NCBI GenBank assembly: GCA_000002445.1
Contig: CP000069.1
Span: 480,001-544,000, forward strand
DNA length: 64,000 bases
Direction of reading: 5' to 3'
Source: Trypanosoma brucei
Taxonomy: Eukaryota
Positions within the stretch are counted from its first letter, which is position 1; every line of letters starts with the position of its first letter. A model generated the notes under the pieces. It ran no database searches and had not been told where the DNA came from. It was given only the letters and a program-made list of their open reading frames with translations. This document shows positions 10,369 through 29,158 of this stretch, piece after piece. Position numbers and translations under genes: made by a program.

Positions 10369-10983
10369 CTATTCCTCTCCTGCACAACTCACATGTTCAC
10401 TTGACGCACTGTCATCCGCTGCAGCAAGTAACTGTTGTCTTCCAGGTGGTTTCTCTCCAGTCAATGCACCACAGAAGCTTACAGTTACTGGCAAAACGGG
10501 TCTGCCCACATCATCAAGAGGAACTGCCTCAAGTTTCTCTAGCAGTGAGAGATCATCAATGGCACGTCCAAACACAACTTGCTTGAAATCAAGAGATGGA
10601 GAAGGACCAAGTGTAATGCCAAATACGGAGCCACTTGTGTGAGGACCCTCAGAGATCATTGTGAGGAGCCCACGTTCCGTGTGTCGGTGACGGTATCCTT
10701 CATCCGCTATTGGTGTGCCAGTGGAGGAGAGGTTAAAGGAATCCAATTCACCCAACACAATGATATTATTGTTGTGATCCACATGATGCACTTGTGTGCC
10801 AAGGTAATCCAATTTCACACCCGTGTTGGTGTCAATCCCACATGACCCAGTGATTAATGCCCTGAAGTTTTCTACGGTTTGTGGCACTACATCGTCAAAG
10901 AGCTCAAATACCAGTCGTCCGCTGAGAACGTCATCAATAGACATATCCAGGAAGGCACGGCAGGAGTTCTGTTCCTCCTTCAT
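10369..10983 (-). CDS. Cyclophilin-like protein, copy 1 (cyclophilin-type PPIase fold, divergent). It is 204 aa from the first ATG; the ORF track extends it to 11034 with an apparent GTG.
   Basis: It aligns to the cyclophilin A core: RLVFELFDDVVPQTVENFRALITG matches [23 protein letters not shown], and FKQVVFGRAIDDLSLLEKLEAV matches [22 protein letters not shown]. Several catalytic positions (Arg55, Gln63, Asn102, Trp121, His126 equivalents) appear substituted. ATG at 10981-10983 checked; the codon at 11032-11034 is cac, i.e. GTG in sense. Confidence 0.7.
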   Translation of the reverse strand: MKEEQNSCRAFLDMSIDDVLSGRLVFELFDDVVPQTVENFRALITGSCGIDTNTGVKLDYLGTQVHHVDHNNNIIVLGELDSFNLSSTGTPIADEGYRHRHTERGLLTMISEGPHTSGSVFGITLGPSPSLDFKQVVFGRAIDDLSLLEKLEAVPLDDVGRPVLPVTVSFCGALTGEKPPGRQQLLAAADDSASSEHVSCAGEE

Positions 10984-11581
10984 GCGATGACTCCGCTGGT
11001 AATTTTCCCATTCCTTTAAGCGGTGCTGTCTCACATAATCTCATAATTTCCTAGTTTGCACTTTACAAAAGGACAAAAAAAAAAGTAAATATATTGACAC
11101 AACGAAGCACACTCCGTACCCATCCTCCCTCTATTGTTAGTTTCCCAACCAATATACTGCACATTATATGCACAGTAAACGTAAGCTAAAATATATAGAT
11201 ATCTGGTAACCGCAACTGGCGGTTGTAACACTAGTCAATACGGTGCACATAAATTTTATACGAGTTCTTACGAACAAAGTTATTCCATCAACAATATGAA
11301 ACACAAAATGATATATAAACACACAAGACAAACAAACCCCATCTCTGCCAAATGCACTTTTACATTTCTACGGGTGAGCCATTATTGGAGTCCCGTGGCA
11401 GTAAACACTATTACAAACATTATTGGGGGAAGCTTTGGAATAGGATATATAAGACAAGGAAATCAGTAACACAACACATTTGAATGCTTACATTAATTTA
11501 TAGAATATTGATGCGTATGATAACGTTGCGGCAAACAGTTTACATTGCAATATGCTTTTGAATCGTATTTCATTATGATAG

Positions 11582-12607
11582 TCAGATAAAACAGAGGGAT
11601 ACTGACAGTAACGTAATTTTGAGTGAGGGGGATGATGCAATATTCTGTTTTTGTGTTTGTGTGGGTTGAGCATCGGAATCCTTTCGTGCTGCAGTTTGGG
11701 GTGCTGTTCTCGAGGGTTGCGCACCTTCAGCTCCAGCTCCAGATTCCTTTAATGCCTTTACTTCCTCTTCATTTTTCGCTTTACCGTAAGTTCCCCTCAA
11801 CTTTTCGACTTGCTCTCTCAACTTTTGAAGAGCCTCATCTCTTCCCTTCATGTGGTCTGTTGCCTCATTCAAGTTCTTAACCCACGGCTTAGAAGTAAAT
11901 ATATCAGGCTCCTCCTCAGGCATTGGTGGACCGCCGGGCGGCGGGGGTGGTGGACCGTCATGTATTGGTTTTTCAGGATACAATCCTCGCAAACCCTCCA
12001 AGTCCTTTCTTATGGCATCAACAGTAACCTCAACTCTATTGATACCCTTTGTACATTTTCCCTTAAGTTCAACCCATGCCTGAAGACCGTCTTCGGCGTT
12101 TCCGTTCTGGCCATACTCTCGGGCTTTCCCGCTCCCAAGGCAGTAGTCGGTGGCCTCACCAACAGAGCTGCAAGTGCAGACAATTTCTTTTGGTAATGCT
12201 GGCCACTCGCTAGCTGGGTTACAGGGCTGGTTGCCCCCATGGGACCCAAACGTTTTGTCCGCATCCTCTTTTTCAATGTTTTCCCCATACGCTGCTTTTT
12301 GAAACGATGACCTGGCGCCATTTTCATGACTCTTTACTTCGTCTTCTAACTCTTTAACTTTATCCACCTCCGCTTTTAAAGCTGGTGAATCCCTGGCATC
12401 TTTATTAAACCACTGATAATCTTCGGTTTCTTTTAACTTATCGAGGTGACTTTTTTCTTTCGCTCCCTTTTCTGCCTTCGTGAAGAGTGAGCACAAGAGA
12501 TCAAATCCCTTTTTGTTTTTTTCATGGTCAACTGCGTTATCGTCTTGAGCTGTTATCCGCGTTACCAACACTCCCACCATGACCACTTTCATAATTACTC
12601 TCCACAT
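11582..12607 (-). CDS. Surface-protein family copy 2, 341 aa.
   Basis: ATG confirmed at 12605-12607. Architecture matches copy 1. Pro tract GPPPPPPGGPPMPEEEPD. The C-terminal ~75 aa are identical to copies 4 and 5. Confidence 0.8.
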   Translation of the reverse strand: MWRVIMKVVMVGVLVTRITAQDDNAVDHEKNKKGFDLLCSLFTKAEKGAKEKSHLDKLKETEDYQWFNKDARDSPALKAEVDKVKELEDEVKSHENGARSSFQKAAYGENIEKEDADKTFGSHGGNQPCNPASEWPALPKEIVCTCSSVGEATDYCLGSGKAREYGQNGNAEDGLQAWVELKGKCTKGINRVEVTVDAIRKDLEGLRGLYPEKPIHDGPPPPPPGGPPMPEEEPDIFTSKPWVKNLNEATDHMKGRDEALQKLREQVEKLRGTYGKAKNEEEVKALKESGAGAEGAQPSRTAPQTAARKDSDAQPTQTQKQNIASSPSLKITLLSVSLCFI

Positions 12608-14251
12608 AGATGTATACCTTTATTATTCGTAATAACAACACAGTAAAAAATAATAGAACATTCATAATAAACACTACAATAATATCAAATCAATGTTGTC
12701 TATCATAACATTGCGTATATTATCCCACAGAGCAAGTGTTAATTTTAAACTCTCGGCAGAAAGTGATATATCTTGCACAGGCAGAGCAAACAGGCTGAAA
12801 TAAAATAGCACCCAACAGGCCATCTCCACAAGTTCACTATACACACAAGAATGATAAATTCACTCAGTTACTCAACAGATGCCAGATATTTGATTTCCCA
12901 TAAACTTTTTTTATTCCTTACTGCTCTAACTCTCTGAAAGGAATTTCCCTCATACAGTAGATTCAGCTGGGTCAAGAAGAGGCACACATCCCACCTCAAC
13001 TTTTTCACCTGCCCAATTTCGGTTTATTTCGGCCAGATACCTTATGATAATTCCCATACTCATATCATTATAGTCACACTTTCTCCATGTCCTCTCAGAC
13101 ACACAAACAAATCATGTTCCTCAATCTTCACATCGCTGTTAAAAACAACAACAGCAAAAAGAAAATACCCACGGTATATTCATTGCTATCTTGTTCCAAA
13201 GCTAGTTCCGTGACCGTAACGTCAGCGACATTCCCTACGAACACAAATATTATCATGTGATAAAAGAATTGGAAGGACACATTTCCTAATATGAAACCGC
13301 AAATCACTGAAACACAAATGTGTAAAGTGTCTAGGAATGGATATACAAAAGGTGGTGTTTAGTGAGGGAAGGATTATTAACTGCCACCCAGTGTGTCTAT
13401 TTCTTTACACCTCATTTCGTATATTGTCAACAATACAAAGTCTTATAAAACATACCATCAGTTGTTCTCCAATAAATATACGTTATACATGCCAATATCA
13501 CAGACACTGCAACATCCTCTTTCTTCAACACTTCAAATACGTAACTCATATACTACTTGCTAAATGTCTTAGTACCATATCCATGCCTCACTGAAGGGTT
13601 TGTGCCGTAACCCAATTAAATGTTGCTTCCTCTCCTCCTTCCATTTCCTCACAATATGATACGCAGAGCTGCAACTTTGTAATATGTGCGCAGTTGATGG
13701 GGACTTCAGTGGTTATCACTTTAAATTGCAAATGGAAATTCTGAAACAGTTCCAATACTCCCTCATGAATACCAACTAGTGTGTGTCTCCCATATACTAG
13801 CAGTTGTCATTACTGCAATGTTATGCTCAATGAGGATCTTTTTATTATCAAGTGTTAGCGCCAACTATTTTATTGTTCATGTCAGGCTCATATTCATGTA
13901 AGTGAAATGGGTGAAACTGTTCTTTTCCTTACTTTGCATTATATAAATAAGAGGAAATAAGGAATGCTTGTTAGAGGCACTCAACAGACACATACACATA
14001 TGAGAGTTTCCATCCAACAATACATACATATCCTTTAAATAGTCCACCAACTGGAGGATGACACCAGCAGGTCAGTGAGGGAAGCAGTATGTCTAGGAAT
14101 AATATAAAAGACACGTGTGACAAAATTTACATATTTGTTGCCTTGCTTTGCCTGCTGCGAATACCATATCACCTCCATCAGTAAAGTTACGGAATTCGGT
14201 AAACTTCCATGAATGCACATAAGCAACTGATACACACACTCTCTTCCCTTT

Positions 14252-14866
14252 CTATTCCTCTCCTGCACAACTCACATGTTCACTTGACGCACTGTCATCC
14301 GCTGCAGCAGGTACCTGTTGTCTTCCAGGTGGTTTCTCTCCAGTCAATGCACCACAGAAGCTTACAGTTACTGGCAAAACGGGTCTGTCCACATCATCAA
14401 GAGGAACTGCCTCAAGTTTCTCTAGCAGTGAGAGATCATCAATGGCACGTCCAAACACAACTTGCTTGAAATCAAGAGATGGAGAAGGACCAAGTGTAAT
14501 GCCAAATACGGAGCCACTTGTGTGAGGACCCTCAGAGATCATTGTGAGAAGCCCACGTTCCGTGTGTCGGTGACGGTATCCTTCATCCGCTATTGGTGTG
14601 CCAGTGGAGGAGAGGTTAAAGGAATCCAATTCACCCAACACAATGATATTATTGTTGTGATCCACATGATGCACTTGTGTGCCAAGGTAATCCAATTTCA
14701 CACCCGTGTTGGTGTCAATCCCACATGACCCAGTGATTAATGCCCTGAAGTTTTCTACGGTTTGTGGCACTACATCGTCAAAGAGCTCAAATACCAGTCG
14801 TCCGCTGAGAACGTCATCGATGGACATGTCCAGGAAGGCACGGCAGGAGTTCTGTTCCTCCTTCAT
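14252..14866 (-). CDS. Cyclophilin-like protein, copy 2, 204 aa.
   Basis: ATG confirmed at 14864-14866 (MKEEQNSC...). It is near-identical to the other copies, with DDVDRP in place of DDVGRP. An upstream in-frame stop comes from a c-to-a change (ttttacc versus ttttccc). Confidence 0.7.
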   Translation of the reverse strand: MKEEQNSCRAFLDMSIDDVLSGRLVFELFDDVVPQTVENFRALITGSCGIDTNTGVKLDYLGTQVHHVDHNNNIIVLGELDSFNLSSTGTPIADEGYRHRHTERGLLTMISEGPHTSGSVFGITLGPSPSLDFKQVVFGRAIDDLSLLEKLEAVPLDDVDRPVLPVTVSFCGALTGEKPPGRQQVPAAADDSASSEHVSCAGEE

Positions 14867-15466
14867 GCGATGACTCCGCTGGTAATTTTACCATTCCTTT
14901 AAGCGGTGCTGTCTCACATTATTTCATAATTTCCTAATTTGCACTCTACAGCAGGACAAAAAAAAAAAAGAGGAAATATATTGACACAGCAAAGCACACT
15001 CAGTACCCATCCTCCCTCTATTGTTAGTCTCCACACCAATATATTGCCCATTATATGCACAGGAAACGTAAGCTAAAATATATATAGATATCCGGTAACC
15101 GCAACTGGCGGTTGCAACAGTAGCCAACACGGTACACATAAATGTTTTAAGTTCTTACGAACAAAGTTATTCCATCAATAATATGAAACACAAAATGGCA
15201 TAAACACACAAGACAAACAAACCCCATCTCTGCCAAATGCACTTTTACATTTCTGTGGGTGAGCCATTATTGGAGTCCCGTGGCAGTAAACACTATTACA
15301 AACATTATTCGGAGAAGCTTTGAAATAAGATATATAAGACAAGGAAATCAGTAACACAACACATTTGAATGCTTACATTAGTTTATAGAATATTGATGCG
15401 TATGATAGCGTTGCGGCAAACAGTTTACATTGCAATATGCTTTTGAATCGTTCCTTATTATGATAG

Positions 15467-16504
15467 TCAGATAAAACAGAGGGATACTGATAGTAACGTA
15501 ATTTTGAGTGAGGGAAATGATGCAATATTCTGTTTTTGTGTTTGTGTTTGTGTGGGTTGAGGATCGGAATCCTTTCGTGCTGCAGTTTGGGGTGCTGTTC
15601 TCGAGGGTTGCACACCTTCAGCTCCAGCTCCAGATTCCTTTAATGCCTTTACTTCCTCTTCATTTTTCGCTCTACCGTAAGTTCCCTTCAGCCTTTTAAC
15701 TTTCTCCTTCAAGTTTTCCAGCGCTGCATCTCTCTTATTCATATGGCTCATCGCCTCATCTAACCGCTTAACCCATGGCTTAGAAGCAAGAGGATCAGGC
15801 CTTTCAGGTATTTGTAGTGGTGAACTGTCTGGTGGTGGTGGTGATGGTGGTGGTGGGGGTGGTGGGGGTGGTGGGGAATCAACTTCCTGGTCTTCTGAAT
15901 ACAATCCTCGCAAATTCTCCAAGTCTTTTCTTATGGCTTCAATAGTAACCTCAACTCTTTCGCTATCCTTTGTACACCTGCTCTTAACTCCATACCATGC
16001 CTGTAGACCGTCTTCCGCTGTCCCGCTTTGGTCATGGCCATAACTTCGAGCCTTCCCGCTCCCAAGGCAGTAGTCGGTGGCCTCGCCAACAGAGCTGCAA
16101 ATGCAGACAATTTCTTTTGGTATTGTTGGCCACTCACTAGCTGGGTTACAGGGCTGGTTGCCCCCATGGGATCCAAAAGTTTTGTCCGCATCCTCTTTTT
16201 CAATGTTTTCCCCATACGCTGCTTTCCGAAACGCTGTCCTGGCATTATTTTCATGACTCTGCACTTCGCTTTCTAACTCTTTCACCTTTTCCGTCTCCGT
16301 TTTCAGAGTCGATGAATCTCTAGCATGTTTCAACTTACCGATGTAGTTTTCTCCTTTTGCTCCCTCTGCCGCCTTCGTGAAGAGCGAGCACAAAATATCA
16401 AACATCTTCTCGTTTTTGCCATGGTTCCTCCAGCTGTCCTCGCCGACAGTAACCTGCGATACCAACACTCCCACCATGACCACTTGCATAAATGATCGCC
16501 ACAT
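15467..16504 (-). CDS. Surface-protein family copy 3, 345 aa, the most divergent N-terminal and central region.
   Basis: N-terminus MWRSFMQVVMVGVLVSQVTVG. Longest Pro tract, SPPPPPPPPPPSPPPPDSSP, encoded by a (GGT/GGG)n run on the plus strand at ~15830-15880. Shares the invariant C-terminal tail. Confidence 0.8.
   Translation of the reverse strand: MWRSFMQVVMVGVLVSQVTVGEDSWRNHGKNEKMFDILCSLFTKAAEGAKGENYIGKLKHARDSSTLKTETEKVKELESEVQSHENNARTAFRKAAYGENIEKEDADKTFGSHGGNQPCNPASEWPTIPKEIVCICSSVGEATDYCLGSGKARSYGHDQSGTAEDGLQAWYGVKSRCTKDSERVEVTIEAIRKDLENLRGLYSEDQEVDSPPPPPPPPPPSPPPPDSSPLQIPERPDPLASKPWVKRLDEAMSHMNKRDAALENLKEKVKRLKGTYGRAKNEEEVKALKESGAGAEGVQPSRTAPQTAARKDSDPQPTQTQTQKQNIASFPSLKITLLSVSLCFI
15828..15880. 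repeat. (GGT/GGG)n trinucleotide-like tract encoding the poly-Pro hinge of surface-protein copy 3
   Basis: ggtggtggtggtgatggtggtggtgggggtggtgggggtggtgggg on the plus strand encodes PPPPPPPPPPSPPPP on the minus strand. Shorter, different-length equivalents lie in the other four copies at ~8000-8050, 11930-11960, 19680-19720 and 23560-23600. Confidence 0.85.
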
Positions 16505-18097
16505 TGTTGTCTTTCTTCACTGTAAACAACAGCACAGAGAAAAACAGCATTCATATTAAACACTACCGTAAAATCAAATAAATGCTGTCTACCTTAAAAC
16601 ATGCACATGTATTATCCCACAGATCAAATATTAATTTTCAACCATCGGCATAAAAAGATATGCCTTTCGTAGGCAGAGCAAACAAACTAACATAACATCC
16701 AACAAGCCACCTCAACAAGCTCACTATACACGAGGATAGTAAATTCGTCAAATCACTATACAGATGCCATCGTCGTCATTTCCCTCATACAGTAGATTCA
16801 GCTGGGTCAAAAAGAGACACACATCCCACATCAAGTCTTTCACCTGCCTTATCCTGGTGTATTTCAATCACTCAACCTCTGACAATTGCTATATTCATAT
16901 TCTTTTGGTTACACTTTCTTAATATCCTCTCAGATACACGAGCACATCACATTGCTTATCTTTACATGGCAATCCAAAATAACAACAGAACCAAAATGCA
17001 CACAGTAAACTTCTTGACACCTGAGGCCGCTCCCACTCCAATCTCGAGGGCCTTAACATCAGAGACACTCTTGACTAACACTAATACTATTGTGTGATAA
17101 AAGAATTGGAAGGATACATTTCCTAACATGACACCGAAAATTACTGAAACACAAATGTGTAAAGTGTCTATGGATGGAAATGCAAAATATGTGGTGTTTA
17201 GTAAGGGAAGGATTATTAACTGCCACCCGGAGTGTATATTTCGTTTAACCTCACTCTGCATATTCTGAACAATACCAAATCTTATAAAACACACCACCAG
17301 TTGTTCTCCAATAAATATACGTTATACATGCCAATATCACAAACACTGCAACATCCTCTTTCTTCAACACTTCAAATACGTAACTCATATATCACTTGCT
17401 AAAGGTCTTAGTACCATATCCATGCCTCACTGAAGGGTTCGTGCCCCTACCCAATTAAATGTTGCTTCCTCTCCTCCTTCCATTTCCTCACAATATGATA
17501 CGCAGAGCTGCAACTTTGTAATATGTGCGCAGTTGATGGGGACTTCAGCCGTTATCACTTTAAATTGCAAATGGAAATTCTGAAACAATTCCAATACTCC
17601 CTCATGAATACCAACTGTTGCGTGTGTGTCTCCCATATACCGGCAGTTGCCATTACTGCAATGTTATGCTCAATGAGGATCTTTTTAATATCAAGTGTTA
17701 ACGGCAACTATTTTATTGTTCATGTCAGGCTCATATTCATGTAAGTGAAATGGGTGAAACTGTTCTTTTCCTTACTTTGCATTATATAAATAAGAGGAAA
17801 TAAGGGATGCTTGTTAGAGGCACGCAACAGACACATACACATATGAGAGTTTCCATCCAACAATACATACATACCCTTTAAATAGTCCACCAACTGGAGG
17901 ATGACACCAGCATGTCAGTGAGGGAAGCAGTATGTCTAGGAATAACATAAAAGACACGCGTGAAGGAATTTACATATTTGTTGCCTTGCTTTGCCTGCTG
18001 CTACGAATACCATATCACCTCCATCAGTAAAGTTACGGAATTCGGTAAACTTCCATGAATGCACATAAGCAACTGATACACACACACTTTTCCCTTC

Positions 18098-18712
18098 CTA
18101 TTCCTCTCCTGCACAACTCACATGTTCACTTGACGCACTGTCATCCGCTGCAGCAAGTAACTGTTGTCTTCCAGGTGGTTTCTCTCCAGTCAATGCACCA
18201 CAGAAGCTTACAGTTACTGGCAAAACGGGTCTGCCCACATCATCAAGAGGAACTGCCTCAAGTTTCTCTAGCAGTGAGAGATCATCAATGGCACGTCCAA
18301 ACACAACTTGCTTGAAATCAAGAGATGGAGAAGGACCAAGTGTAATGCCAAATACGGAGCCACTTGTGTGAGGACCCTCAGAGATCATTGTGAGGAGCCC
18401 ACGTTCCGTGTGTCGGTGACGGTATCCTTCATCCGCTATTGGTGTGCCAGTGGAGGAGAGGTTAAAGGAATCCAATTCACCCAACACAATGATATTATTG
18501 TTGTGATCCACATGATGCACTTGTGTGCCAAGGTAATCCAATTTCACACCCGTGTTGGTGTCAATCCCACATGACCCAGTGATTAATGCCCTGAAGTTTT
18601 CTACGGTTTGTGGCACTACATCGTCAAAGAGCTCAAATACCAGTCGTCCGCTGAGAACGTCATCAATAGACATATCCAGGAAGGCACGGCAGGAGTTCTG
18701 TTCCTCCTTCAT
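18098..18712 (-). CDS. Cyclophilin-like protein, copy 3, 204 aa from the first ATG. The ORF track extends it to 18763.
   Basis: The translated protein is identical to copy 1. Confidence 0.7.
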   Translation of the reverse strand: MKEEQNSCRAFLDMSIDDVLSGRLVFELFDDVVPQTVENFRALITGSCGIDTNTGVKLDYLGTQVHHVDHNNNIIVLGELDSFNLSSTGTPIADEGYRHRHTERGLLTMISEGPHTSGSVFGITLGPSPSLDFKQVVFGRAIDDLSLLEKLEAVPLDDVGRPVLPVTVSFCGALTGEKPPGRQQLLAAADDSASSEHVSCAGEE

Positions 18713-19316
18713 GCGATGACTCCGCTGGTAATTTTCCCATTCCTTTAAGCGGTGCTGTCTCACATTATTTCATAATTTCCTAATTTGCACTCTACAGCAG
18801 GACAAAAAAAAAAAAGAGGAAATATATTGACACAGCAAAGCACACTCAGTACCCATCCTCCCTCTATTGTTAGTCTCCACACCAATATATTGCCCATTAT
18901 ATGCACAGGAAACGTAAGCTAAAATATATATAGATATCCGGTAACCGCAACTGGCGGTTGTAACACTAGTCAATACGGTGCACATAAATTTTATACGAGT
19001 TCTTACGAACAAAGTTATTCCATCAACAATATGAAACACAAAATGATATATAAACACACAAGACAAACAAACCCCATCTCTGCCAAATGCACTTTTACAT
19101 TTCTACGGGTGAGCCATTATTGGAGTCCCGTGGCAGTAAACACTATTACAAACATTATTGGGGGAAGCTTTGGAATAGGATATATAAGACAAGGAAATCA
19201 GTAACACAACACATTTGAATGCTTACATTAATTTATAGAATATTGATGCGTATGATAACGTTGCGGCAAACAGTTTACATTGCAATATGCTTTTGAATCG
19301 TTCCTTATTATGATAG

Positions 19317-20360
19317 TCAGATAAAACAGAGGGATACTGATAGTAACGTAATTTTGAGTGAGGGGGATGATGCAATATTCTGTTTTTGTGTTTGTGTGGG
19401 TTGAGCATCGGAATCCTTTCGTGCTGCAGTTTGGGGTGCTGTTCTCGAGGGTTGCGCACCTTCAGCTCCAGCTCCAGATTCCTTTAATGCCTTTACTTCC
19501 TCTTCATTTTTCGCTTTACCGTAAGTTCCCCTCAACTTTTCGACTTGCTCTCTCAACTTTTGAAGAGCCTCATCTCTTCCCTTCATGTGGTCTGTTGCCT
19601 CATTCAAGTTCTTAACCCACGGCTTAGAAGTAAATATATCAGGCTCCTCCTCAGGCATTGGTGGACTGCCAGGTGGGAACGGAGGTGGCGGTGGTGGCGG
19701 TGGAGGTTCTTGGCCTTTTGAGTCGTCTGAATACAAACCCCTCAAACCCTCCAAGTCCTTTTCTATAGCTTCGACAGTAACCTCGGCACTGCTGCTGGCA
19801 CTCGTACATTTTCCCTTAACTCCATTCCATGCCTGTAGACGCTGTTCAGCCGTGGTATCGTCGTGATTTCGGGCATTCTCGCTCCCACCGAAGCAGCTTT
19901 CAGTGGCACCTTGTGTGGGGCTGCAACTACAGATGATACTGTTAGGTATCGTTGACCATCGGTTTGTTTCGTCGCATGGATTGCCTACTGTATGGTGTCC
20001 AAAAGTTTTGTCCGCGTCCTCTTCTTCAATGTTATCCCCATAGGCTGCTTTCCGAAACGCTGTCTTGGCGCCACTTTCATGGCTCTGCACTTTGTTTTCT
20101 AACTCTTTAACTTTATCCACCTCCGCTTTTAAAGCTGGTGAATCCCTGGCATCTTTATTAAACCACTGATAATCTTCGGTTTCTTTTAGCTTATCGAGGT
20201 GACTTTTTTCTTTCGCTCCCTTTTCTGCCTTCGTGAAGAGTGAGCACAAGAGATCAAATCCCTTCTTGTCTTTCTCGTGGTCAATCCAGTCATTCTTTCC
20301 CATTGCAACTCCCGTTACCAACACTCCCACCATGACCACTTTCATAATTACTCTCCACAT
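19317..20360 (-). CDS. Surface-protein family copy 4, 347 aa.
   Basis: N-terminus MWRVIMKVVMVGVLVTGVAMGKNDW. Pro tract EPPPPPPPPPFPPGSPPMPEEEPD. It differs from copy 5 at only ~6 residues. Confidence 0.8.
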   Translation of the reverse strand: MWRVIMKVVMVGVLVTGVAMGKNDWIDHEKDKKGFDLLCSLFTKAEKGAKEKSHLDKLKETEDYQWFNKDARDSPALKAEVDKVKELENKVQSHESGAKTAFRKAAYGDNIEEEDADKTFGHHTVGNPCDETNRWSTIPNSIICSCSPTQGATESCFGGSENARNHDDTTAEQRLQAWNGVKGKCTSASSSAEVTVEAIEKDLEGLRGLYSDDSKGQEPPPPPPPPPFPPGSPPMPEEEPDIFTSKPWVKNLNEATDHMKGRDEALQKLREQVEKLRGTYGKAKNEEEVKALKESGAGAEGAQPSRTAPQTAARKDSDAQPTQTQKQNIASSPSLKITLLSVSLCFI

Positions 20361-21987
20361 AGATGTATACCTTTATTATTCGTAATAACAACACAGTAAA
20401 AAATAATAGAACATTAATATTAAACACTACAGTAATATCAAATCAATGTTGTCTATCATAACATTGCGTATATTATCCCACAGAGCAGTTATTACTGTTT
20501 AACTCTCAGCAGAAAGTGATATGCCATTCATAGGCAGAGCATGCAAACTAACATAACATCCAACAAGCCATCTCCACAAGCTCACTATACACGAGGATAG
20601 TAAATTCACGAAGTCACTTTACAGATGCCATCGTCGTGATTTCCCTCAATCTTTTTTTATTCCTTACTGCTCTAACTCTCTGAAAGGAATTTCCCTCATA
20701 CAGTAGATTCAGCTGGGTCAAAAAGAGGCACACATCCCACATCAAGTCTTTCACCTGCCTTATCCTGGTGTATTTCAACCACACACCTTCTAGGAATATT
20801 CATATATAATTATAGTCACACTTTCTCCATGTCCTCTCAGACACAAGAACAAATCATGATCCTCTACTTTTACATCACTATTAAATGAACAGCAAAAAGA
20901 AAATACACACAATATATTCATTGATATATGGTTCCCACTGCTGGTTCCGTGACCGTAATGTCAGTGACACATTTTACGAACACAAATACTATGATAAAAG
21001 AATTGGAAGGACACATTTCCTAACATGACACCGAAAATTACTGAAACACAAATGTGTAAAGTGTCTATGGATGGAAATGCAAAATATGTGGTGTTTAGTA
21101 AGGGAAGGATTATTAGCTGCCACCCGGAGTGTATATTTCTTTACACCTCATTTCGTATCTTGTCAACAATACAAAGTCTTATAAAACACACCACCAGTTG
21201 TTCTCCAATAAATATACGTTATACATGCCAATATCACAGACACTGCAACATCCTCTTTCTTCAACACTTCAAATACGTAACTCATATATCACTTGCTAAA
21301 GGTCTTAGTACCATATCCATGCCTCACTGAAGGGTTTGTGCCGTAACCCAATTAAATGTTGCTTCCTCTCCTCCTTCCATTTCCTCACAATATGATACGC
21401 AGAGCTGCAACTTTGTAATATGTGCGCAGTTGATGGGGACTTCAGTGGTTATCACTTTAAATTGCAAATGGAAATTCTGAAACAGTTCCAATACTCCCTC
21501 ATGAATACCAACTAGTGTGTGTCTCCCATATACTAGCAGTTGTCATTACTGCAATGTTATGCTCAATGAGGATCTTTTTATTATCAAGTGTTAGCGCCAA
21601 CTATTTTATTGTTCATGTCAGGCTCATATTCATGTAAGTGAAATGGGTGAAACTGTTCTTTTCCTTACTTTGCATTATATAAATAAGAGGAAATAAGGAA
21701 TGCTTGTTAGAGGCACTCAACAGACACATACACATATGAGAGTTTCCATCCAACAATACATACATATCCTTTAAATAGTCCACCAACTGGAGGATGACAC
21801 CAGCAGGTCAGTGAGGGAAGCAGTATGTCTAGGAATAATATAAAAGACACGTGTGACAAAATTTACATATTTGTTGCCTTGCTTTGCCTGCTGCGAATAC
21901 CATATCACCTCCATCAGTAAAGTTACGGAATTCGGTAAACTTCCATGAATGCACATAAGCAACTGATACACACACACTTTTCCCTTC

Positions 21988-22602
21988 CTATTCCTCTCCT
22001 GCACAACTCACATGTTCACTTGACGCACTGTCATCCGCTGCAGCAAGTAACTGTTGTCTTCCAGGTGGTTTCTCTCCAGTCAATGCACCACAGAAGCTTA
22101 CAGTTACTGGCAAAACGGGTCTGCCCACATCATCAAGAGGAACTGCCTCAAGTTTCTCTAGCAGTGAGAGATCATCAATGGCACGTCCAAACACAACTTG
22201 CTTGAAATCAAGAGATGGAGAAGGACCAAGTGTAATGCCAAATACGGAGCCACTTGTGTGAGGACCCTCAGAGATCATTGTGAGGAGCCCACGTTCCGTG
22301 TGTCGGTGACGGTATCCTTCATCCGCTATTGGTGTGCCAGTGGAGGAGAGGTTAAAGGAATCCAATTCACCCAACACAATGATATTATTGTTGTGATCCA
22401 CATGATGCACTTGTGTGCCAAGGTAATCCAATTTCACACCCGTGTTGGTGTCAATCCCACATGACCCAGTGATTAATGCCCTGAAGTTTTCTACGGTTTG
22501 TGGCACTACATCGTCAAAGAGCTCAAATACCAGTCGTCCGCTGAGAACGTCATCAATAGACATATCCAGGAAGGCACGGCAGGAGTTCTGTTCCTCCTTC
22601 AT
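21988..22602 (-). CDS. Cyclophilin-like protein, copy 4, 204 aa from the first ATG. The ORF track extends it to 22653.
   Basis: Identical to copies 1 and 3. Confidence 0.7.
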   Translation of the reverse strand: MKEEQNSCRAFLDMSIDDVLSGRLVFELFDDVVPQTVENFRALITGSCGIDTNTGVKLDYLGTQVHHVDHNNNIIVLGELDSFNLSSTGTPIADEGYRHRHTERGLLTMISEGPHTSGSVFGITLGPSPSLDFKQVVFGRAIDDLSLLEKLEAVPLDDVGRPVLPVTVSFCGALTGEKPPGRQQLLAAADDSASSEHVSCAGEE

Positions 22603-23202
22603 GCGATGACTCCGCTGGTAATTTTCCCATTCCTTTAAGCGGTGCTGTCTCACATAATCTCATAATTTCCTAGTTTGCACTTTACAAAAGGACAAAAAAA
22701 AAAGTAAATATATTGACACAACGAAGCACACTCCGTACCCATCCTCCCTCTATTGTTAGTTTCCCAACCAATATACTGCACATTATATGCACAGTAAACG
22801 TAAGCTAAAATATATATAGATATCTGGTAACCGCAACTGGCGGTTGTAACACTAGTCAATACGGTGCACATAAATTTTATACGAGTTCTTACGAACAAAG
22901 TTATTCCATCAACAATATGAAACACAAAATGATATATAAACACACAAGACAAACAAACCCCATCTCTGCCAAATGCACTTTTACATTTCTACGGGTGAGC
23001 CATTATTGGAGTCCCGTGGCAGTAAACACTATTACAAACATTATTGGGGGAAGCTTTGGAATAGGATATATAAGACAAGGAAATCAGTAACACAACACAT
23101 TTGAATGCTTACATTAATTTATAGAATATTGATGCGTATGATAACGTTGCGGCAAACAGTTTACATTGCAATATGCTTTTGAATCGTATTTCATTATGAT
23201 AG

Positions 23203-24246
23203 TCAGATAAAACAGAGGGATACTGACAGTAACGTAATTTTGAGTGAGGGGGATGATGCAATATTCTGTTTTTGTGTTTGTGTGGGTTGAGCATCGGAAT
23301 CCTTTCGTGCTGCAGTTTGGGGTGCTGTTCTCGAGGGTTGCGCACCTTCAGCTCCAGCTCCAGATTCCTTTAATGCCTTTACTTCCTCTTCATTTTTCGC
23401 TTTACCGTAAGTTCCCTTTAACTTTTTGACTTGCTCTCTCAACTTTTGAAGAGCCTCATCTCTTCCCTTCATGTGGTCTGTTGCCTCATTCAAGTTCTTA
23501 ACCCATGGCTTAGAAGCAAATTGATCAGGCTTCTCCTCAGGCATTGGTGGACTGCCAGGTGGGAACGGAGGTGGCGGTGGTGGCGGTGGAGGTTCTTGGC
23601 CTTTTGAGTCGTCTGAATACAAAGCCCTCAAACCCTCCAAGTCCTTTTCTATAGCTTCGACAGTAACCTCGGCACTGCTGCTGGCACTCGTACATTTTCC
23701 CTTAACTCCATTCCATGCCTGTAGACGCTGTTCAGCCGTGGTATCGTCGTGATTTCGGGCATTCTCGCTCCCACCGAAGCAGCTTTCAGTGGCACCTTGT
23801 GTGGGGCTGCAACTACAGATGATACTGTTAGGTATCGTTGACCATCGGTTTGTTTCGTCGCATGGATTGCCTACTGTATGGTGTCCAAAAGTTTTGTCCG
23901 CGTCCTCTTCTTCAATGTTATCCCCATAGGCTGCTTTCCGAAACGCTGTCTTGGCGCCACTTTCATGGCTCTGCACTTTGTTTTCTAACTCTTTAACTTT
24001 ATCCACCTCCGCTTTTAAAGCTGGTGAATCCCTGGCATCTTTATTAAACCACTGATAATCTTCGGTTTCTTTTAGCTTATCGAGGTGACTTTTTTCTTTC
24101 GCTCCCTTTTCTGCCTTCGTGAAGAGTGAGCACAAGAGATCAAATCCCTTCTTGTCTTTCTCGTGGTCAATCCAGTCATTCTTTCCCATTGCAACTCCCG
24201 TTACCAACACTCCCACCATGACCACTTTCATAATTACTCTCCACAT
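23203..24246 (-). CDS. Surface-protein family copy 5, 347 aa.
   Basis: Near-identical to copy 4, with substitutions clustered around EEKPDQFASK and EQVKKLKG. These are states that copy 1 also carries. Confidence 0.8.
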   Translation of the reverse strand: MWRVIMKVVMVGVLVTGVAMGKNDWIDHEKDKKGFDLLCSLFTKAEKGAKEKSHLDKLKETEDYQWFNKDARDSPALKAEVDKVKELENKVQSHESGAKTAFRKAAYGDNIEEEDADKTFGHHTVGNPCDETNRWSTIPNSIICSCSPTQGATESCFGGSENARNHDDTTAEQRLQAWNGVKGKCTSASSSAEVTVEAIEKDLEGLRALYSDDSKGQEPPPPPPPPPFPPGSPPMPEEKPDQFASKPWVKNLNEATDHMKGRDEALQKLREQVKKLKGTYGKAKNEEEVKALKESGAGAEGAQPSRTAPQTAARKDSDAQPTQTQKQNIASSPSLKITLLSVSLCFI

Positions 24247-25873
24247 AGATGTATACCTTTATTATTCGTAATAACAACACAGTAAAAAATAATAGAACAT
24301 TAATATTAAACACTACAGTAATATCAAATCAATGTTGTCTATCATAACATTGCGTATATTATCCCACAGAGCAGTTATTACTGTTTAACTCTCAGCAGAA
24401 AGTGATATGCCATTCATAGGCAGAGCATGCAAACTAACATAACATCCAACAAGCCATCTCCACAAGCTCACTATACACGAGGATAGTAAATTCACGAAGT
24501 CACTTTACAGATGCCATCGTCGTGATTTCCCTCAATCTTTTTTTATTCCTTACTGCTCTAACTCTCTGAAAGGAATTTCCCTCATACAGTAGATTCAGCT
24601 GGGTCAAAAAGAGGCACACATCCCACATCAAGTCTTTCACCTGCCTTATCCTGGTGTATTTCAACCACACACCTTCTAGGAATATTCATATATAATTATA
24701 GTCACACTTTCTCCATGTCCTCTCAGACACAAGAACAAATCATGATCCTCTACTTTTACATCACTATTAAATGAACAGCAAAAAGAAAATACACACAATA
24801 TATTCATTGATATATGGTTCCCACTGCTGGTTCCGTGACCGTAATGTCAGTGACACATTTTACGAACACAAATACTATGATAAAAGAATTGGAAGGACAC
24901 ATTTCCTAACATGACACCGAAAATTACTGAAACACAAATGTGTAAAGTGTCTATGGATGGAAATGCAAAATATGTGGTGTTTAGTAAGGGAAGGATTATT
25001 AGCTGCCACCCGGAGTGTATATTTCTTTACACCTCATTTCGTATCTTGTCAACAATACAAAGTCTTATAAAACACACCACCAGTTGTTCTCCAATAAATA
25101 TACGTTATACATGCCAATATCACAGACACTGCAACATCCTCTTTCTTCAACACTTCAAATACGTAACTCATATATCACTTGCTAAAGGTCTTAGTACCAT
25201 ATCCATGCCTCACTGAAGGGTTTGTGCCGTAACCCAATTAAATGTTGCTTCCTCTCCTCCTTCCATTTCCTCACAATATGATACGCAGAGCTGCAACTTT
25301 GTAATATGTGCGCAGTTGATGGGGACTTCAGTGGTTATCACTTTAAATTGCAAATGGAAATTCTGAAACAGTTCCAATACTCCCTCATGAATACCAACTA
25401 GTGTGTGTCTCCCATATACCGGCAGTTGCCATTACTGCAATGTTATGCTCAATGAGGATCTTTTTATTATCAAGTGTTAGCGCCAACTATTTTATTGTTC
25501 ATGTCAGGCTCATATTCATGTAAGTGAAATGGGTGAAACTGTTCTTTTCCTTACTTTGCATTATATAAATAAGAGGAAATAAGGGATGCTTGTTAGAGGC
25601 ACGCAACAGACACATACACATATGAGAGTTTCCATCCAACAATACATACATATCCTTTAAATAGTCCACCAACTGGAGGATGACACCAGCAGGTCAGTGA
25701 GGGAAGCAGTATGTCTAGGAATAATATAAAAGACACGTGTGACAAAATTTACATATTTGTTGCCTTGCTTTGCCTGCTGCGAATACCATATCACCTCCAT
25801 CAGTAAAGTTACGGAATTCGGTAAACTTCCATGAATGCACATAAGCAACTGATACACACACACTTTTCCCTTC

Positions 25874-26656
25874 CTATTCCTCTCCTGCACAACTCACATG
25901 TTCACTTGACGCACTGTCATCCGCTGCAGCAGGTACCTGTTGTCTTCCAGGTGGTTTCTCTCCAGTCAATGCACCACAGAAGCTTACAGTTACTGGCAAA
26001 ACGGGTCTGCCCACATCATCAAGAGGAACTGCCTCAAGTTTCTCTAGCAGTGAGAGATCATCAATAGCACGTCCAAACACAACTTGCTTGAAATCAAGAG
26101 ATGGAGAAGGACCAAGTGTAATGCCAAATACGGAGCCACTTGTGTGAGGACCCTCAGAGATCATTGTGAGAAGCCCACGTTCCGTGTGTCGGTGACGGTA
26201 TCCTTCATCCGCTATTGGTGTGCCAGTGGAGGAGAGGTTAAAGGAATCCAATTCACCCAACACAATGATATTATTGTTGTGATCCACATGATGCACTTGT
26301 GTGCCAAGGTAATCCAATTTCACACCCGTGTTGGTGTCAATCCCACATGACCCAGTGATTAATGCCCTGAAGTTTTCTACGGTTCGCGGCACTACATCGT
26401 CAAAGAGTTCAAATACCAGTCGTCCGCTGAGAACGTCATCAATGGACATATCCAGGAAGGCACGGCAGGAGTTCTGTTCCTCCTTCATGCGATGACTCCG
26501 CTGGTAATTTTCCCATTCTTTTAAACGGCGCTCCTCCACATCGTCGTAACGACTCTGAAGTGTCGCAGAGTCTTCATCATTTTCTGGTCGTTGTAACCTC
26601 GAATCTCCCTTTTTCCTGCGGGAGTGCCGTACACCTTCTAGTTTTGTCGTTGACAT
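25874..26656 (-). CDS. Cyclophilin-like protein, copy 5, the full-length form: 260 aa from the ATG at 26656. The ORF-track start at 26692 is an apparent TTG.
   Basis: It has a unique ~56-aa N-terminal extension (MSTTKLEGVRHSRRKKGDS...RYDDVEERRLKEWENYQRSHR) that the internal copies lack. Homology to the internal copies begins at RLKEWENY, which is the array junction. ATG checked at 26654-26656. Confidence 0.65.
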   Translation of the reverse strand: MSTTKLEGVRHSRRKKGDSRLQRPENDEDSATLQSRYDDVEERRLKEWENYQRSHRMKEEQNSCRAFLDMSIDDVLSGRLVFELFDDVVPRTVENFRALITGSCGIDTNTGVKLDYLGTQVHHVDHNNNIIVLGELDSFNLSSTGTPIADEGYRHRHTERGLLTMISEGPHTSGSVFGITLGPSPSLDFKQVVFGRAIDDLSLLEKLEAVPLDDVGRPVLPVTVSFCGALTGEKPPGRQQVPAAADDSASSEHVSCAGEE

Positions 26657-26898
26657 CAAAACAATCACTAGGCCTATTCCGCGCTGAAGCAAGATGTCGA
26701 ATAAGTGAATGCTATCTCAATCCTCTGAAGTTTTAAAATGAAAGCCGAAGAAAGAGGAGAAATAAAGGATGGAAGAGTGAGGGATGCTGGGCGTATTGGT
26801 AGTGTAACCATAAACACTATAGGTGATGTGAAAACAATGATTCCCTGAAGCCTCTTGGGTGGGGGTAAGGGAAGATAAAGGAGGAGAAAGAAGATCAG

Positions 26899-28915: not shown

Positions 28916-29158
28916 CCAAAAGGGGGGGGGGAATGTACGTTTCCTTTCTCCCCTTTATTTCTCCTTCGGGTGCTAGTTGCCTTCCTTCCCTTTTTGTCCC
29001 AATTACGGAGTTCAGTATCTCGGGCAGCAACAATGCAAACTGCAGACACATTAACTAATCACTTACACGCTAGATGAAAGCGACCTTAGACAACAATTAA
29101 GTCGGTTTAACTGCTTTGCCTTCCCCCTTACCTCTCGGCACCCACAACTTTGGAGGTC

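What the first reader, a model, noticed from the sequence alone, without database searches (positions are those of the whole stretch)
11031..26530. Patchwork relationships between units imply ongoing gene conversion
The units pair differently in different segments. The 5' end of each unit (the start of the cyclophilin-like region and the adjacent spacer) pairs unit 2 with unit 5 (ctcataatttcctagtttgcactttacaaaaggac... at 11040 and 22663) and unit 3 with unit 4 (ttatttcataatttcctaatttgcactctacagcaggac... at 14921 and 18770). The surface-protein CDSs pair unit 4 with unit 5 (about 6 aa differences). Unit 2 shares its N- and C-termini with units 4 and 5 but not the middle. The few unit 4/5 differences (EEKPDQFASK, KKLKG) are states also found in unit 1. 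A single ladder of duplications cannot give this pattern; segmental gene conversion between copies can.
Basis: seen in the sequence. Interest (0 to 1): 0.6.

Follow-up and report, generated by a model that had tools for sequence, protein, structure and literature searches.

The report
Mosaic tandem surface-gene array in trypanosome
Five tandem copies of a VSG-like surface-protein gene in Trypanosoma brucei are patchworks of one another because the copies keep exchanging DNA segments, which is real but is a specific case of a process already well documented in this parasite's gene arrays.

Summary
The window is T. brucei brucei TREU927 chromosome 6. The array (7114-26545, five ~3.9 kb units) is the published 'Fam1' locus Tb927.6.1310-.1390: a b-type-VSG-like GPI-anchored surface gene alternating with 5'-truncated cyclophilin copies, all on the minus strand. 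Which units pair changes along the unit:
- U3=U4 and U2=U5 at the unit head
- U2=U4 in the 3' third of the CDS
- U2~U3 in the N-domain core
- U4=U5 over 1.86 kb
- U1=U3 and U2=U4 upstream
- U1=U4 in the cyclophilin part

A single tree is rejected by the PHI test (z=-23), by longest-shared-run permutations, and by 6-7 parsimony breakpoints against 0 in permuted data. Hudson-Kaplan Rm is at least 6 in the low-divergence parts. Short two-breakpoint patches (about 40-115 bp) and zero-difference tracts point to recent short-tract gene conversion, probably alongside unequal crossing-over.

U4 is a perfect mosaic of the other units with no private base. The N-domain cores are anciently diverged (dS 0.55-0.9) while the flanks are near-identical. 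The single genes of T. b. gambiense and T. equiperdum are further distinct mosaics. This argues against the published reading of recent duplication followed by rapid divergence.

The array and the general phenomenon are already known. The mosaic in this particular array was not described in the papers I could read.

The parts
7114..26545 (-). Whole tandem array: five ~3.9 kb two-gene units (Fam1 locus, Tb927.6.1310-.1390 plus the intact cyclophilin gene), transcribed right to left, ending at a convergent strand-switch region
   Evidence: Searches give the repeat structure. Searches show 100% identity to XP_845253/255/257/259/261 of TREU927. PMC3605285 and PMC2854126 describe the locus.
7114..11040 (-). 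Unit 1 (Fam1 CDS 7653-8708; truncated cyclophilin ORF 10369-10983). Its core is the most divergent. Its tail 10357-11040 is identical to the U4 tail, and 9823-10274 is identical to U3.
11041..14923 (-). Unit 2 (Fam1 CDS 11582-12607; cyclophilin ORF 14252-14866). It is a chimera. The head 11041-11190 and 11204-11795 are identical to U5. Segment 11630-11931 is identical to U4. The U3-like block is 11968-12312 (residues ~99-214). Segment 13798-14239 is identical to U4.
14924..18769 (-). Unit 3 (Fam1 CDS 15467-16504; cyclophilin ORF 18098-18712). The head 14924-15114 is identical to the U4 head, and 17549-18000 is identical to U1.
18770..22659 (-). Unit 4 (Fam1 CDS 19317-20360; cyclophilin ORF 21988-22602). 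It is a perfect mosaic with no private base, tiled by exact segments: U3 (18770-18960), U2/U5 (18961-19301), U1/U3 (19302-19364), U2 (19365-19666), U5 (19667-21533), U2 (21534-21975), U1 (21976-22659).
22660..26545 (-). Unit 5 (Fam1 CDS 23203-24246; intact 260-aa cyclophilin gene 25874-26656, which runs past the end of the repeat). It is identical to U4 over 23626-25419. It carries U1/U3-type patches at 23417-23532 and 25420-25603.
19302..19364 (.). Short two-breakpoint patch in U4, spanning the Fam1 stop codon and first 3'UTR bases. Five sites are of U1/U3 type, flanked on both sides by sequence identical to U2. This is a candidate conversion tract of 40-104 bp.
23417..23532 (.). Patch in the 3' third of the U5 Fam1 CDS. 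Seven of eight differences from U4/U2 are states seen in U1 and/or U3, but no single extant unit matches all of them. This patch causes the EEKPDQFASK and KKLKG differences.
19740..21533 (.). 1.8 kb tract of U4 with zero differences from U5 23626-25419. It covers Fam1 N-domain codons 1-207 and 1.17 kb of upstream intergenic DNA, elsewhere the most diverged part of the unit.
7102..7113 (.). End of the unique left flank (CCACATCATC). It shares imperfect microhomology with the right end of the array at 26534-26545 (CCACATCGTC, inside the cyclophilin CDS). This is a candidate site of the founding duplication.
   Evidence: sequence read directly; the role is inferred

Best explanation
The five units of the T. 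brucei Fam1 / cyclophilin array repeatedly exchange sequence by homologous recombination between misaligned or paralogous units. The main mode is short-tract, non-crossover gene conversion. Unequal crossing-over also acts and changes copy number.

Shown:
- The units have mutually incompatible genealogies in at least seven consecutive segments.
- Several exchanged pieces are 40-120 bp patches bounded on both sides by a different relationship.
- Some shared tracts (300-1860 bp) carry no differences at all.
- U4 consists only of pieces found in other units.
- Exchange is very uneven along the unit. The cyclophilin part, the Fam1 3'UTR and the last ~115 Fam1 codons are homogenised (0-4% divergence, dS 0-0.09).
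- The N-terminal VSG-like domain and the ~0.7 kb upstream of it remain deeply diverged (25-35% nucleotide divergence, dS 0.55-0.9, dN/dS 0.3-0.65).
- One limit of the homogenised zone, the end of the U2=U4 exact identity tract, lies in the length-variable poly-proline (CCN)n tract.

Inferred:
- The core types are old paralogous lineages, much older than the T. brucei subspecies split, and not recent duplicates that diverged fast.
- Sequence divergence and indels in the core limit heteroduplex formation there, so conversion homogenises the flanks and only occasionally moves core blocks. Examples are the older U3-like block in U2, now 84-91% identical, and the very recent U4=U5 tract.
- The single-gene loci of T. 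b. gambiense, T. evansi and T. equiperdum IVM-t1 are contractions or differently assorted haplotypes carrying yet other core mosaics.
- The founding duplication may have used the CCACATCRTC microhomology.
For: Mosaic identity profile. Clustered incompatible site patterns (13|245 120 sites and 45|123 74 sites, against 23, 12, 25, 34 and 24 totalling about 110). Sawyer-type run test. PHI z=-23 overall, and significant separately in cols 1-760, 760-2400 and 2400-3977. Segmentation gives 6-7 breakpoints against 0 in permutations. Rm=6 in low-divergence DNA, where homoplasy is implausible. Conflicting splits have 95-100% bootstrap. The result is robust to dropping U4 or U5. Triplet tests support the same chimeras. 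U4 tiles exactly, with no private base. Patch structure is visible in the variable-site matrices.

The right flank is 99.0% identical between TREU927 and DAL972, so a 1.8 kb tract with 0 differences is younger than that split (13.6 differences expected), and 27% divergence in the non-coding cols 1701-2290 is far older.

The gambiense and equiperdum proteins are only 64-72% identical to every TREU927 copy, and their closest unit changes segment by segment. No outside donor was found: only 6 protein clusters exist in 5.8 billion sequences, and the profile search finds only remote b-type VSGs at 35-49 bits.

Copy number differs among subspecies (PMC2854126 Table 1; PMC4288722). The general mechanism is documented for T. 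brucei arrays (PMC1855330; PMC2854126 Table 2).
Against: - Everything rests on one reference assembly of a diploid. Allelic variants or mis-joined reads in a 3.9 kb repeat could mimic some exchanges. The stretch that is 100% identical in all units (cols ~3400-3700) cannot be phased by Sanger reads alone, and U4's lack of private bases is also what an assembly chimera would show.
- Non-reciprocity, the defining property of conversion, cannot be seen in a single genome.
- Segment boundaries for the bootstraps were chosen from the data.
- Site incompatibilities within the diverged core (Rm 37) are partly homoplasy or alignment error.
- The age argument assumes similar neutral rates in the core and the flanks.
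Confidence: 0.82

Rival explanations
1. Unequal crossing-over alone (sister-chromatid or meiotic, in shifted register) built and reshuffled the array. Each unit is a hybrid made by single crossovers, with no short-tract conversion.
For: Copy number is 5 in TREU927 and 1 in DAL972, IVM-t1 and STIB805 (PMC4288722), so unequal exchange does occur. U4's broad structure (U5-like left and centre, U1/U3-like right end) fits one crossover between an upstream unit and U5.
Against: The longest U4=U5 identity is 1857 columns, not a full 3.9 kb period. At least three patches of 40-120 bp have the same background on both sides (U4 19302-19364; U5 23417-23532; alternating U5 25420-25603). Each patch would need two closely spaced crossovers plus compensating copy-number changes.
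Confidence: 0.1
2. Assembly or allelic artefact. The reference array mixes reads from different units or from the two homologous chromosomes. U4 would be a phantom or chimeric unit, and U4 and U5 could be alleles of one unit.
For: U4 has zero private variants and is tiled exactly by other units. U4 and U5 are 98.7% identical. About 300-700 bp are identical in all units. PMC2854126 itself warns that assembled copy number 'can be arbitrary' and that copy number and allelic variation are hard to separate.
Against: The mosaic remains highly significant with U4 or U5 removed. Breakpoints inside the densely polymorphic CDS (U2 block 11968-12312; col 909/910) lie where single reads are unambiguous. 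The gambiense and equiperdum genes from independent assemblies are themselves mosaics relative to the TREU927 units. A T. equiperdum OVI contig reproduces the U1 head with 2 mismatches in 7.2 kb.
Confidence: 0.06
3. Recent duplication in T. b. brucei, followed by rapid adaptive divergence of the surface-protein core. Apparent sharing of states would be due to parallel selection. This is essentially the published reading.
For: PMC2854126 describes the locus as a segmental duplication with subsequent divergence and accelerated rates. There is a single copy in three other Trypanozoon genomes. The protein is surface-exposed, being found in the flagellar pocket and endosomes (PMC3605285).
Against: Synonymous divergence in the core is 0.55-0.9 and dN/dS is 0.3-0.65, never above 1 over the core. 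The non-coding 0.6 kb upstream is also 25-35% diverged. The flank divergence between subspecies is 0.76%. Shared states come in contiguous runs that include synonymous and non-coding sites. The gambiense gene is about equally distant (67-68% aa) from all TREU927 copies, including its proposed orthologue Tb927.6.1310.
Confidence: 0.05
4. The diverged cores were imported by ectopic segmental conversion from VSG or VSG-related genes elsewhere in the genome, as in mosaic VSG formation.
For: The N-domain is a b-type VSG domain (PF13206, 34-43 bits). T. brucei uses segmental conversion to build mosaic VSGs (established knowledge; PMC7015903 abstract).
Against: No protein outside the seven Fam1 sequences is close. 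The best outside hits are VSGs at 35-49 bits. No tandem repeat of the 70-bp-repeat kind lies in or beside the units. VSG pseudogenes without protein records could not be searched.
Confidence: 0.04

Closest known systems
Concerted evolution and 'allelic' gene conversion in T. brucei tandem gene arrays (Jackson 2007, PMC1855330; Jackson et al. [quoted passage not shown]
   Same: Tandem polycistronic array. CDS and UTR/intergenic segments give inconsistent phylogenies. PHI and GENECONV-type signals are present. Non-coding parts are more homogeneous than the CDS, as in the BARP array. Isoforms are subspecies-specific.
   Different: This two-gene array was handled in those papers only as a 'segmental duplication with subsequent divergence' (Table 1 and Fig. 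S3 of PMC2854126) and was not put through their recombination tests. Here the paralogues of one genome are not monophyletic relative to other subspecies: the gambiense copy nests among the TREU927 units segment by segment. So the cladistic criterion of concerted evolution is not met.
Fam1 of the African-trypanosome cell-surface phylome (Tb927.6.1310-.1390; Jackson et al. 2013, PMC3605285)
   Same: It is the same locus. [quoted passage not shown] The genes are derived from b-type VSG, lack the VSG C-terminal domain, and have a signal peptide and a GPI signal. T. b. gambiense has a single copy.
   Different: That paper fits one Bayesian tree to the CDS and does not mention recombination (0 occurrences of 'recombin' or 'gene conversion'). 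It quotes 0.1-3.2% nucleotide divergence and calls the gambiense gene the counterpart of Tb927.6.1310. Here the units differ by 1.3-12.7% overall and by 25-35% in the core, and the gambiense protein is 67-68% identical to all copies.
Mosaic VSG formation by segmental gene conversion during antigenic variation
   Same: The protein domain is VSG-type. Chimeric genes are assembled from segments of related paralogues. N-domain diversity contrasts with conserved 3' ends that supply homology.
   Different: The locus is chromosome-internal and polycistronic, not a telomeric expression site. There are no 70-bp repeats. There are only five donors, all within the array. There is no evidence that exchange happens within an infection or is selected by antibody.
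Birth-and-death plus interlocus gene conversion in other tandem surface or immune gene arrays (for example MHC and other multigene families; from general knowledge, not tested here)
   Same: Old, diverged functional cores coexist with homogenised flanks. Lineages pass across taxon boundaries. Copy number varies.
   Different: No population sample is available here to show balancing selection, and dN/dS over the core is below 1.

Membership tests
Interlocus gene conversion within a tandem array | Homologous tandem paralogues that can pair | tested here: met
   Five units of 3846-3927 bp, 87-99% identical overall
Interlocus gene conversion within a tandem array | Different segments support incompatible genealogies, with shared polymorphisms clustered non-randomly (GENECONV/PHI-type signal) | tested here: met
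   all permutation p<=0.0014, most 2e-4
Interlocus gene conversion within a tandem array | Short tracts with two breakpoints and no change of register or copy number (non-crossover products) | tested here: met
   U4 19302-19364 (5 sites, 40-104 bp). U5 23417-23532. Alternating patches in U5 25420-25603. That no copy-number change accompanied them is inferred.
Interlocus gene conversion within a tandem array | Non-reciprocal transfer (donor unchanged, recipient overwritten) | not testable with these tools
   Needs before-and-after genomes or tetrad/progeny data; only one array sequence is available
Concerted evolution (cladistic criterion of Jackson 2007) | Paralogues within a genome are closer to each other than to counterparts in related taxa | tested here: not met
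   In the homogenised parts the gambiense unit is 98-100% identical to U2/U4/U5 but 92-96% to U1/U3. In the core it is about equidistant from all.
Unequal crossing-over (copy-number change) | Copy-number differences between related genomes at the same locus | tested here: met
   One unit in DAL972 (L001) and in IVM-t1 (L002), against five here. Also PMC2854126 Table 1 and PMC4288722. Assembly collapse is not excluded by my data, but PMC2854126 reports that the extra isoforms are absent from gambiense reads.
Unequal crossing-over (copy-number change) | A recent event leaves a full unit-length identical duplicate | tested here: not met
   The longest exact tract is 1857 alignment columns (U4/U5), less than half a unit
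Fam1 / b-type VSG N-terminal domain proteins (PF13206) | Pfam VSG_B match above the gathering score, and no VSG C-terminal domain (PF10659) | tested here: met
   34.3 and 43.3 bits against a cut-off of 25, with no PF10659 hit. The outside relatives are bona fide VSGs carrying both domains.
Fam1 / b-type VSG N-terminal domain proteins (PF13206) | Three-helix-bundle VSG-like fold | tested here: inconclusive
   The AF2 model has mean pLDDT 59 from a 7-sequence alignment. Foldseek gives no hit at E<=0.001; the weak top hits are ISG65, VSG615 and VSG11.
Mosaic VSG formation (antigenic variation system) | 70-bp repeats upstream and transfer into a telomeric expression site from a silent archive | tested here: not met
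   No tandem repeats in or next to the units. The locus is chromosome-internal, between housekeeping genes. No close outside donors.

The most novel reading that the evidence does not exclude
The Fam1 array could be a small, chromosome-internal, VSG-derived diversity cassette. Ancient N-domain core types would be kept by balancing or diversifying selection across T. brucei subspecies. Continuing segmental conversion among units, and between homologues in tsetse-stage meiosis, would generate strain-specific mosaic surface proteins expressed in metacyclic and bloodstream forms. That would be a second, germline-scale antigen-diversification system running alongside classical VSG switching.
Probability: 0.15. 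Interest if true: 0.6.

Novelty: new member of a known kind. Interest (0 to 1): 0.3.

Why it matters
Fam1 is a T. brucei-specific, VSG-derived surface protein. It has been reported in the flagellar pocket and endosomes, with transcripts enriched in metacyclic forms (PMC3605285, PMC3378594).

If its isoforms are mosaics of old lineages rather than recent duplicates, three things follow:
- Trees and orthology statements built on whole CDSs are misleading, including the published equation of the gambiense gene with Tb927.6.1310.
- The copy-number difference between human-infective and animal subspecies reflects assortment or contraction of an old repertoire, not a brucei-specific innovation.
- The locus becomes a compact, tractable place to measure conversion tract lengths, and the effect of divergence on homologous recombination, in a parasite whose antigenic variation depends on the same machinery.

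None of this changes the general picture of trypanosome array evolution.

Tried and rejected
- I first recalled the locus as the MISP family (chr 7). This was rejected: MISP proteins carry 26-residue C-terminal repeats and are Tb927.7.360-.440. The neighbouring genes then pointed to Tb927.6.13xx: an ORF I recognised from memory as aquaglyceroporin 1 at 52496-53461, and one resembling alkyl-DHAP synthase (neither annotation was tested). The literature confirmed the assignment.
- A search for outside donors of the diverged cores found nothing close. This used three word-indexed protein searches and one exhaustive profile search.
- Structure prediction and Foldseek were intended to place the variable region on a VSG fold. 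The model confidence was too low (pLDDT 59) and there were no significant hits.
- Exact-protein look-ups for the truncated and intact cyclophilin ORFs, meant to find the array in other assemblies, returned nothing on record. Look-ups with the flanking 310-aa and 229-aa proteins gave only T. equiperdum OVI contigs that stop at the edges of the repeat, plus sub-2 kb Logan contigs.
- UniProt and RefSeq accession searches in the paper library gave no hits.
- An apparent 7.5 kb duplication at 26-42 kb turned out to be my own artefact, from reading two loci out of one FASTA file.
- tRNA and tandem-repeat scans of the window found nothing relevant.
- GARD, RDP and likelihood-based breakpoint tests were not available. 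I substituted permutation, parsimony and four-gamete analyses written for the purpose.


Full report
**Identity of the locus.** The five long minus-strand ORFs of 341-351 aa (7653-8708, 11582-12607, 15467-16504, 19317-20360, 23203-24246) are 100% identical to five 'hypothetical protein, conserved' entries of Trypanosoma brucei brucei TREU927 (XP_845253, 255, 257, 259, 261). They match Pfam VSG_B (PF13206) at 34-43 bits against a cut-off of 25, and have no VSG C-terminal domain. The ORFs between them are cyclophilin-type PPIase (PF00160).

The literature identifies the locus as Fam1, Tb927.6.1310-.1390. [quoted passage not shown] Transcripts are enriched in salivary-gland and metacyclic forms (PMC3378594). 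The T. b. gambiense genome paper lists the same array under Tbg972.6.1030: unit 3865 bp, 2 genes, 5 copies, PPIase distance 0.0068, hypothetical protein distance 0.1564, with 4 isoforms unique to T. b. brucei. [quoted passage not shown] T. evansi STIB805 is also reported to lack the duplication (PMC4288722).

**Anatomy.**
- The array runs from 7114 to 26545: U1 7114-11040, U2 11041-14923, U3 14924-18769, U4 18770-22659, U5 22660-26545.
- All genes are on the minus strand. The 310-aa gene on the plus strand at 4320-5252 makes the left end a convergent strand-switch region.
- The right boundary of the repeat lies inside the cyclophilin CDS. Only the U5 copy is the intact 260-aa gene (25874-26656). 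The four internal copies lack the first ~56 codons but keep an in-frame ATG and the whole PPIase domain.
- The end of the left flank (CCACATCATC, 7102-7113) and the end of the array (CCACATCGTC, 26534-26545) share imperfect microhomology. All internal junctions share derived changes, as expected if one founding junction was later amplified. The role of the microhomology is an inference.

**The observation.** I aligned the five units with MAFFT (3977 columns). Column 1 is the unit head. The Fam1 CDS is cols 548-1621, read right to left, and the cyclophilin ORF is cols 3306-3920. Pairwise identity in 200-bp windows changes partner repeatedly.

Of the 315 parsimony-informative columns, 280 biallelic ones define a single two-unit split and 35 have three or more states. 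About 194 of the biallelic ones fit the best single tree ((1,3),2,(4,5)). About 110 columns support the incompatible splits 23, 12, 25, 34 and 24, and these come in runs. Differences per segment show the following:

| Columns | Pattern |
|---|---|
| 1-191 | U3=U4 (0 differences), U2~U5 (2), 19-21 between the pairs |
| 192-532 | U2=U4=U5 |
| 533-595 | U1=U3=U4 against U2=U5 |
| 596-909 | U2=U4 (0), U5 differs at 8 |
| 910-1300 | U2 closest to U3 (89 against 140) |
| 992-2848 | U4=U5 (0) |
| 2291-2450 | U1 with U2 |
| 2849-3293 | U2=U4 (0), U1~U3 (3) |
| 3294-3977 | U1=U4 (0), U3 differs at 2 |

The only corrections are coordinate offsets of 2-5 bp, and the fact that EEKPDQFASK is only partly a U1 state.

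**Statistics.**
- A Sawyer-type test compares the longest run of consecutive polymorphic sites at which a pair is identical with 5000 permutations of site order. It is significant at p=2e-4 for U1-U3, U1-U4, U2-U3, U2-U4, U2-U5, U3-U4, U3-U5 and U4-U5, pairings that cannot all be sisters.
- PHI is 0.124 against a permuted mean of 0.280 (z=-23). It is also significant separately in the two low-divergence thirds, p=0.0014 and 2e-4.
- Dynamic-programming segmentation over the 15 unrooted topologies finds 6-7 breakpoints with penalties of 3-4 steps, against 0.00-0.02 in permuted data.
- Hudson-Kaplan Rm is 6 using only the 61 biallelic informative sites in low-divergence DNA. It is 43 overall, but the core figure is inflated by homoplasy and alignment uncertainty.
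- Bootstraps within segments give 95-100% for conflicting splits, although the segments were chosen from the data.
- Removing U4 or U5 leaves three quartet splits that are strongly clustered along the sequence, p=2e-4.

**Conversion versus crossover.** U4 contains no private base. It is tiled exactly by nine segments of other units, in the order U3, U2/U5, U1/U3, U2, U5, a 2-bp stretch, U5, U2, U1. Of the 55 columns that distinguish U4 from U5, 40 have both states present in other units. Most of the 15 U5-private columns lie at the extreme right end, where U5 continues into unique sequence.

Several exchanged pieces are short and bounded by the same background on both sides:
- five sites at U4 19302-19341, with U2-identical sequence on either side;
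- eight sites at U5 23417-23532, where U5 carries a mixture of U1 and U3 states that no extant unit matches completely, so the donor is not in the assembled array;
- alternating U1/U3-type and U2/U4-type states at U5 25420-25603.

Such patches are what heteroduplex repair or short conversion tracts produce. Single unequal crossovers give one breakpoint and a unit-length duplicate, and the longest exact tract here is less than half a unit. Unequal exchange must nevertheless occur, because copy number differs among subspecies. Non-reciprocity cannot be tested from one genome.

**Timing.** The unique right flank differs between TREU927 and DAL972 by 59 mismatches in 7769 bp, or 0.76%. A 1794-bp tract with no difference (U4 19740-21533 against U5) would be expected to carry about 14 differences if it were as old as that split. 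The 684-, 598-, 445- and 302-bp exact tracts point the same way. Other exchanges are old: the U3-like block in U2 is now only 84-91% identical to U3, with dS 0.26. Events of several ages, including very recent ones, are what 'ongoing' predicts.

Divergence is extremely uneven along the unit.
- The last ~60 Fam1 codons have dS 0-0.09.
- The N-domain core has dS 0.55-0.9 with dN/dS 0.3-0.65.
- The ~0.6 kb of non-coding DNA upstream of the start codon differs at 25-35% of columns.
- One limit of the homogenised zone, the end of the U2=U4 exact identity tract, falls in the length-variable poly-proline tract at U4 residue ~232.

Synonymous and non-coding divergence 40-100 times the subspecies flank divergence cannot be produced by selection on the protein after a recent duplication.

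The single genes of T. b. gambiense DAL972 and T. equiperdum IVM-t1 are 64-72% identical in protein to every TREU927 copy and to each other. The gambiense gene is 68% identical to Tb927.6.1310, its proposed counterpart. Their closest TREU927 unit also changes segment by segment. For example, the gambiense unit is 91-97% U1-like in cols 1276-1425 of the 7-way alignment and 98-100% U2/U4-like in cols 2776-3225.

I therefore infer that the core types are old lineages, that the flanks are kept similar by conversion, and that the single-copy loci are contracted or differently assorted haplotypes. The alternative of import from VSG genes has no support. The whole protein universe searched contains only these seven sequences plus remote b-type VSGs at 35-49 bits. 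VSG pseudogene DNA could not be searched.

**Caveats.**
- All inference about the array itself comes from one Sanger-era assembly of a diploid clone, and PMC2854126 notes that assembled copy number can be arbitrary.
- The stretch identical in all units (about cols 3400-3700) could allow mis-joining of left and right halves.
- U4's lack of private bases would also be expected of a chimeric consensus.
- Against a purely artefactual origin: the signal survives removal of U4 or U5. Key breakpoints lie in densely polymorphic CDS. Independently assembled genes from two other taxa are mosaics too.
- T. equiperdum OVI contigs reproduce the left flank and U1 head (99.97%) and the right flank and U5 tail (99.83%). 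Both stop 370-450 bp into the repeat, as a short-read assembly of a multi-copy array would.

**Comparison with what is known, and verdict.** Incongruent CDS and UTR genealogies, PHI, GENECONV and GARD signals, and 'subspecies-specific sequence mosaics' are established for T. brucei tandem arrays (PMC1855330; PMC2854126 Table 2). This array was catalogued but, in the papers I could read, treated as duplication plus divergence and summarised by a single tree, with no mention of recombination.

The finding is therefore a correct, well-supported new instance of a known process in a known locus. It carries a modest corrective implication for how the locus has been interpreted. Interest 0.3; novelty 'new member of a known kind'.

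Noticed in passing
L002 (T. equiperdum IVM-t1, CM010677.1) 8761-9700, against window ~24566-32255: In this assembly the Fam1 upstream region (~319 bp 5' of the ATG) is joined directly to the equivalent of window 32256. About 7.7 kb is therefore absent: the cyclophilin gene, the 229-aa gene, the UPF0220 gene, the 769-aa MATH-domain gene and part of a 302-aa ORF. It is either a real deletion or a mis-assembly.
   Followed up: partly
L003 (window 357-7566) and L005 (window 36422-26172), T. equiperdum OVI contigs: Both flanking contigs are 99.8-99.97% identical to TREU927 and both end 370-450 bp after entering the repeat unit. This suggests that OVI, unlike IVM-t1, carries an unresolved multi-copy array, so copy number may vary within T. 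equiperdum.
   Followed up: partly
window 1000-4500 (left flank, mostly without long ORFs): TREU927 differs from both DAL972 and IVM-t1 by 5-10% per 500 bp here, whereas the right flank is 99.0% identical. DAL972 and IVM-t1 are nearly identical to each other from ~2500 rightwards. Two deep haplotypes therefore seem to exist next to the strand-switch region.
   Followed up: partly
window 7102-7113 and 26534-26545; internal junctions at 11040/11041, 14923/14924, 18769/18770, 22659/22660: There is imperfect microhomology, CCACATC(A/G)TC, at the two outer boundaries of the array. The internal junctions come in two types: ...cacataatc|TCATAATTTCCTAG (U1|U2, U4|U5) and ...cacattatt|TCATAATTTCCTAA (U2|U3, U3|U4). 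The second type matches the left-flank boundary of the gambiense and equiperdum loci.
   Followed up: partly
window 19655-19712 (U4) and the equivalent positions in the other units: The poly-proline (CCN)n tract of the Fam1 CDS varies in length between units. It sits at one limit of the homogenised 3' part of the gene, where the U2=U4 exact identity tract ends. It may act as a barrier to, or a hotspot for, heteroduplex extension.
   Followed up: no
whole array, compared with PMC3605285: The published figure of '0.1-3.2% nucleotide sequence divergence' among Fam1 copies does not fit the sequence. Units differ by 1.3-12.7% overall and by 25-35% in the CDS core. The figure legend of the same paper says chromosome 5 where its text says chromosome 6.
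   Followed up: yes
window 10369-10983, 14252-14866, 18098-18712, 21988-22602: The four 5'-truncated cyclophilin copies keep an intact reading frame and the full PPIase domain, with only a few substitutions (for example G->D in U2, LL->VP in U2 and U5). I did not examine whether they are expressed, or merely kept intact by conversion from the full-length gene.
   Followed up: no
window 57710-57897: There is a 93-bp x 2 tandem repeat (95% match) inside a 386-aa minus-strand ORF (56815-57975). It is unrelated to the array.
   Followed up: no
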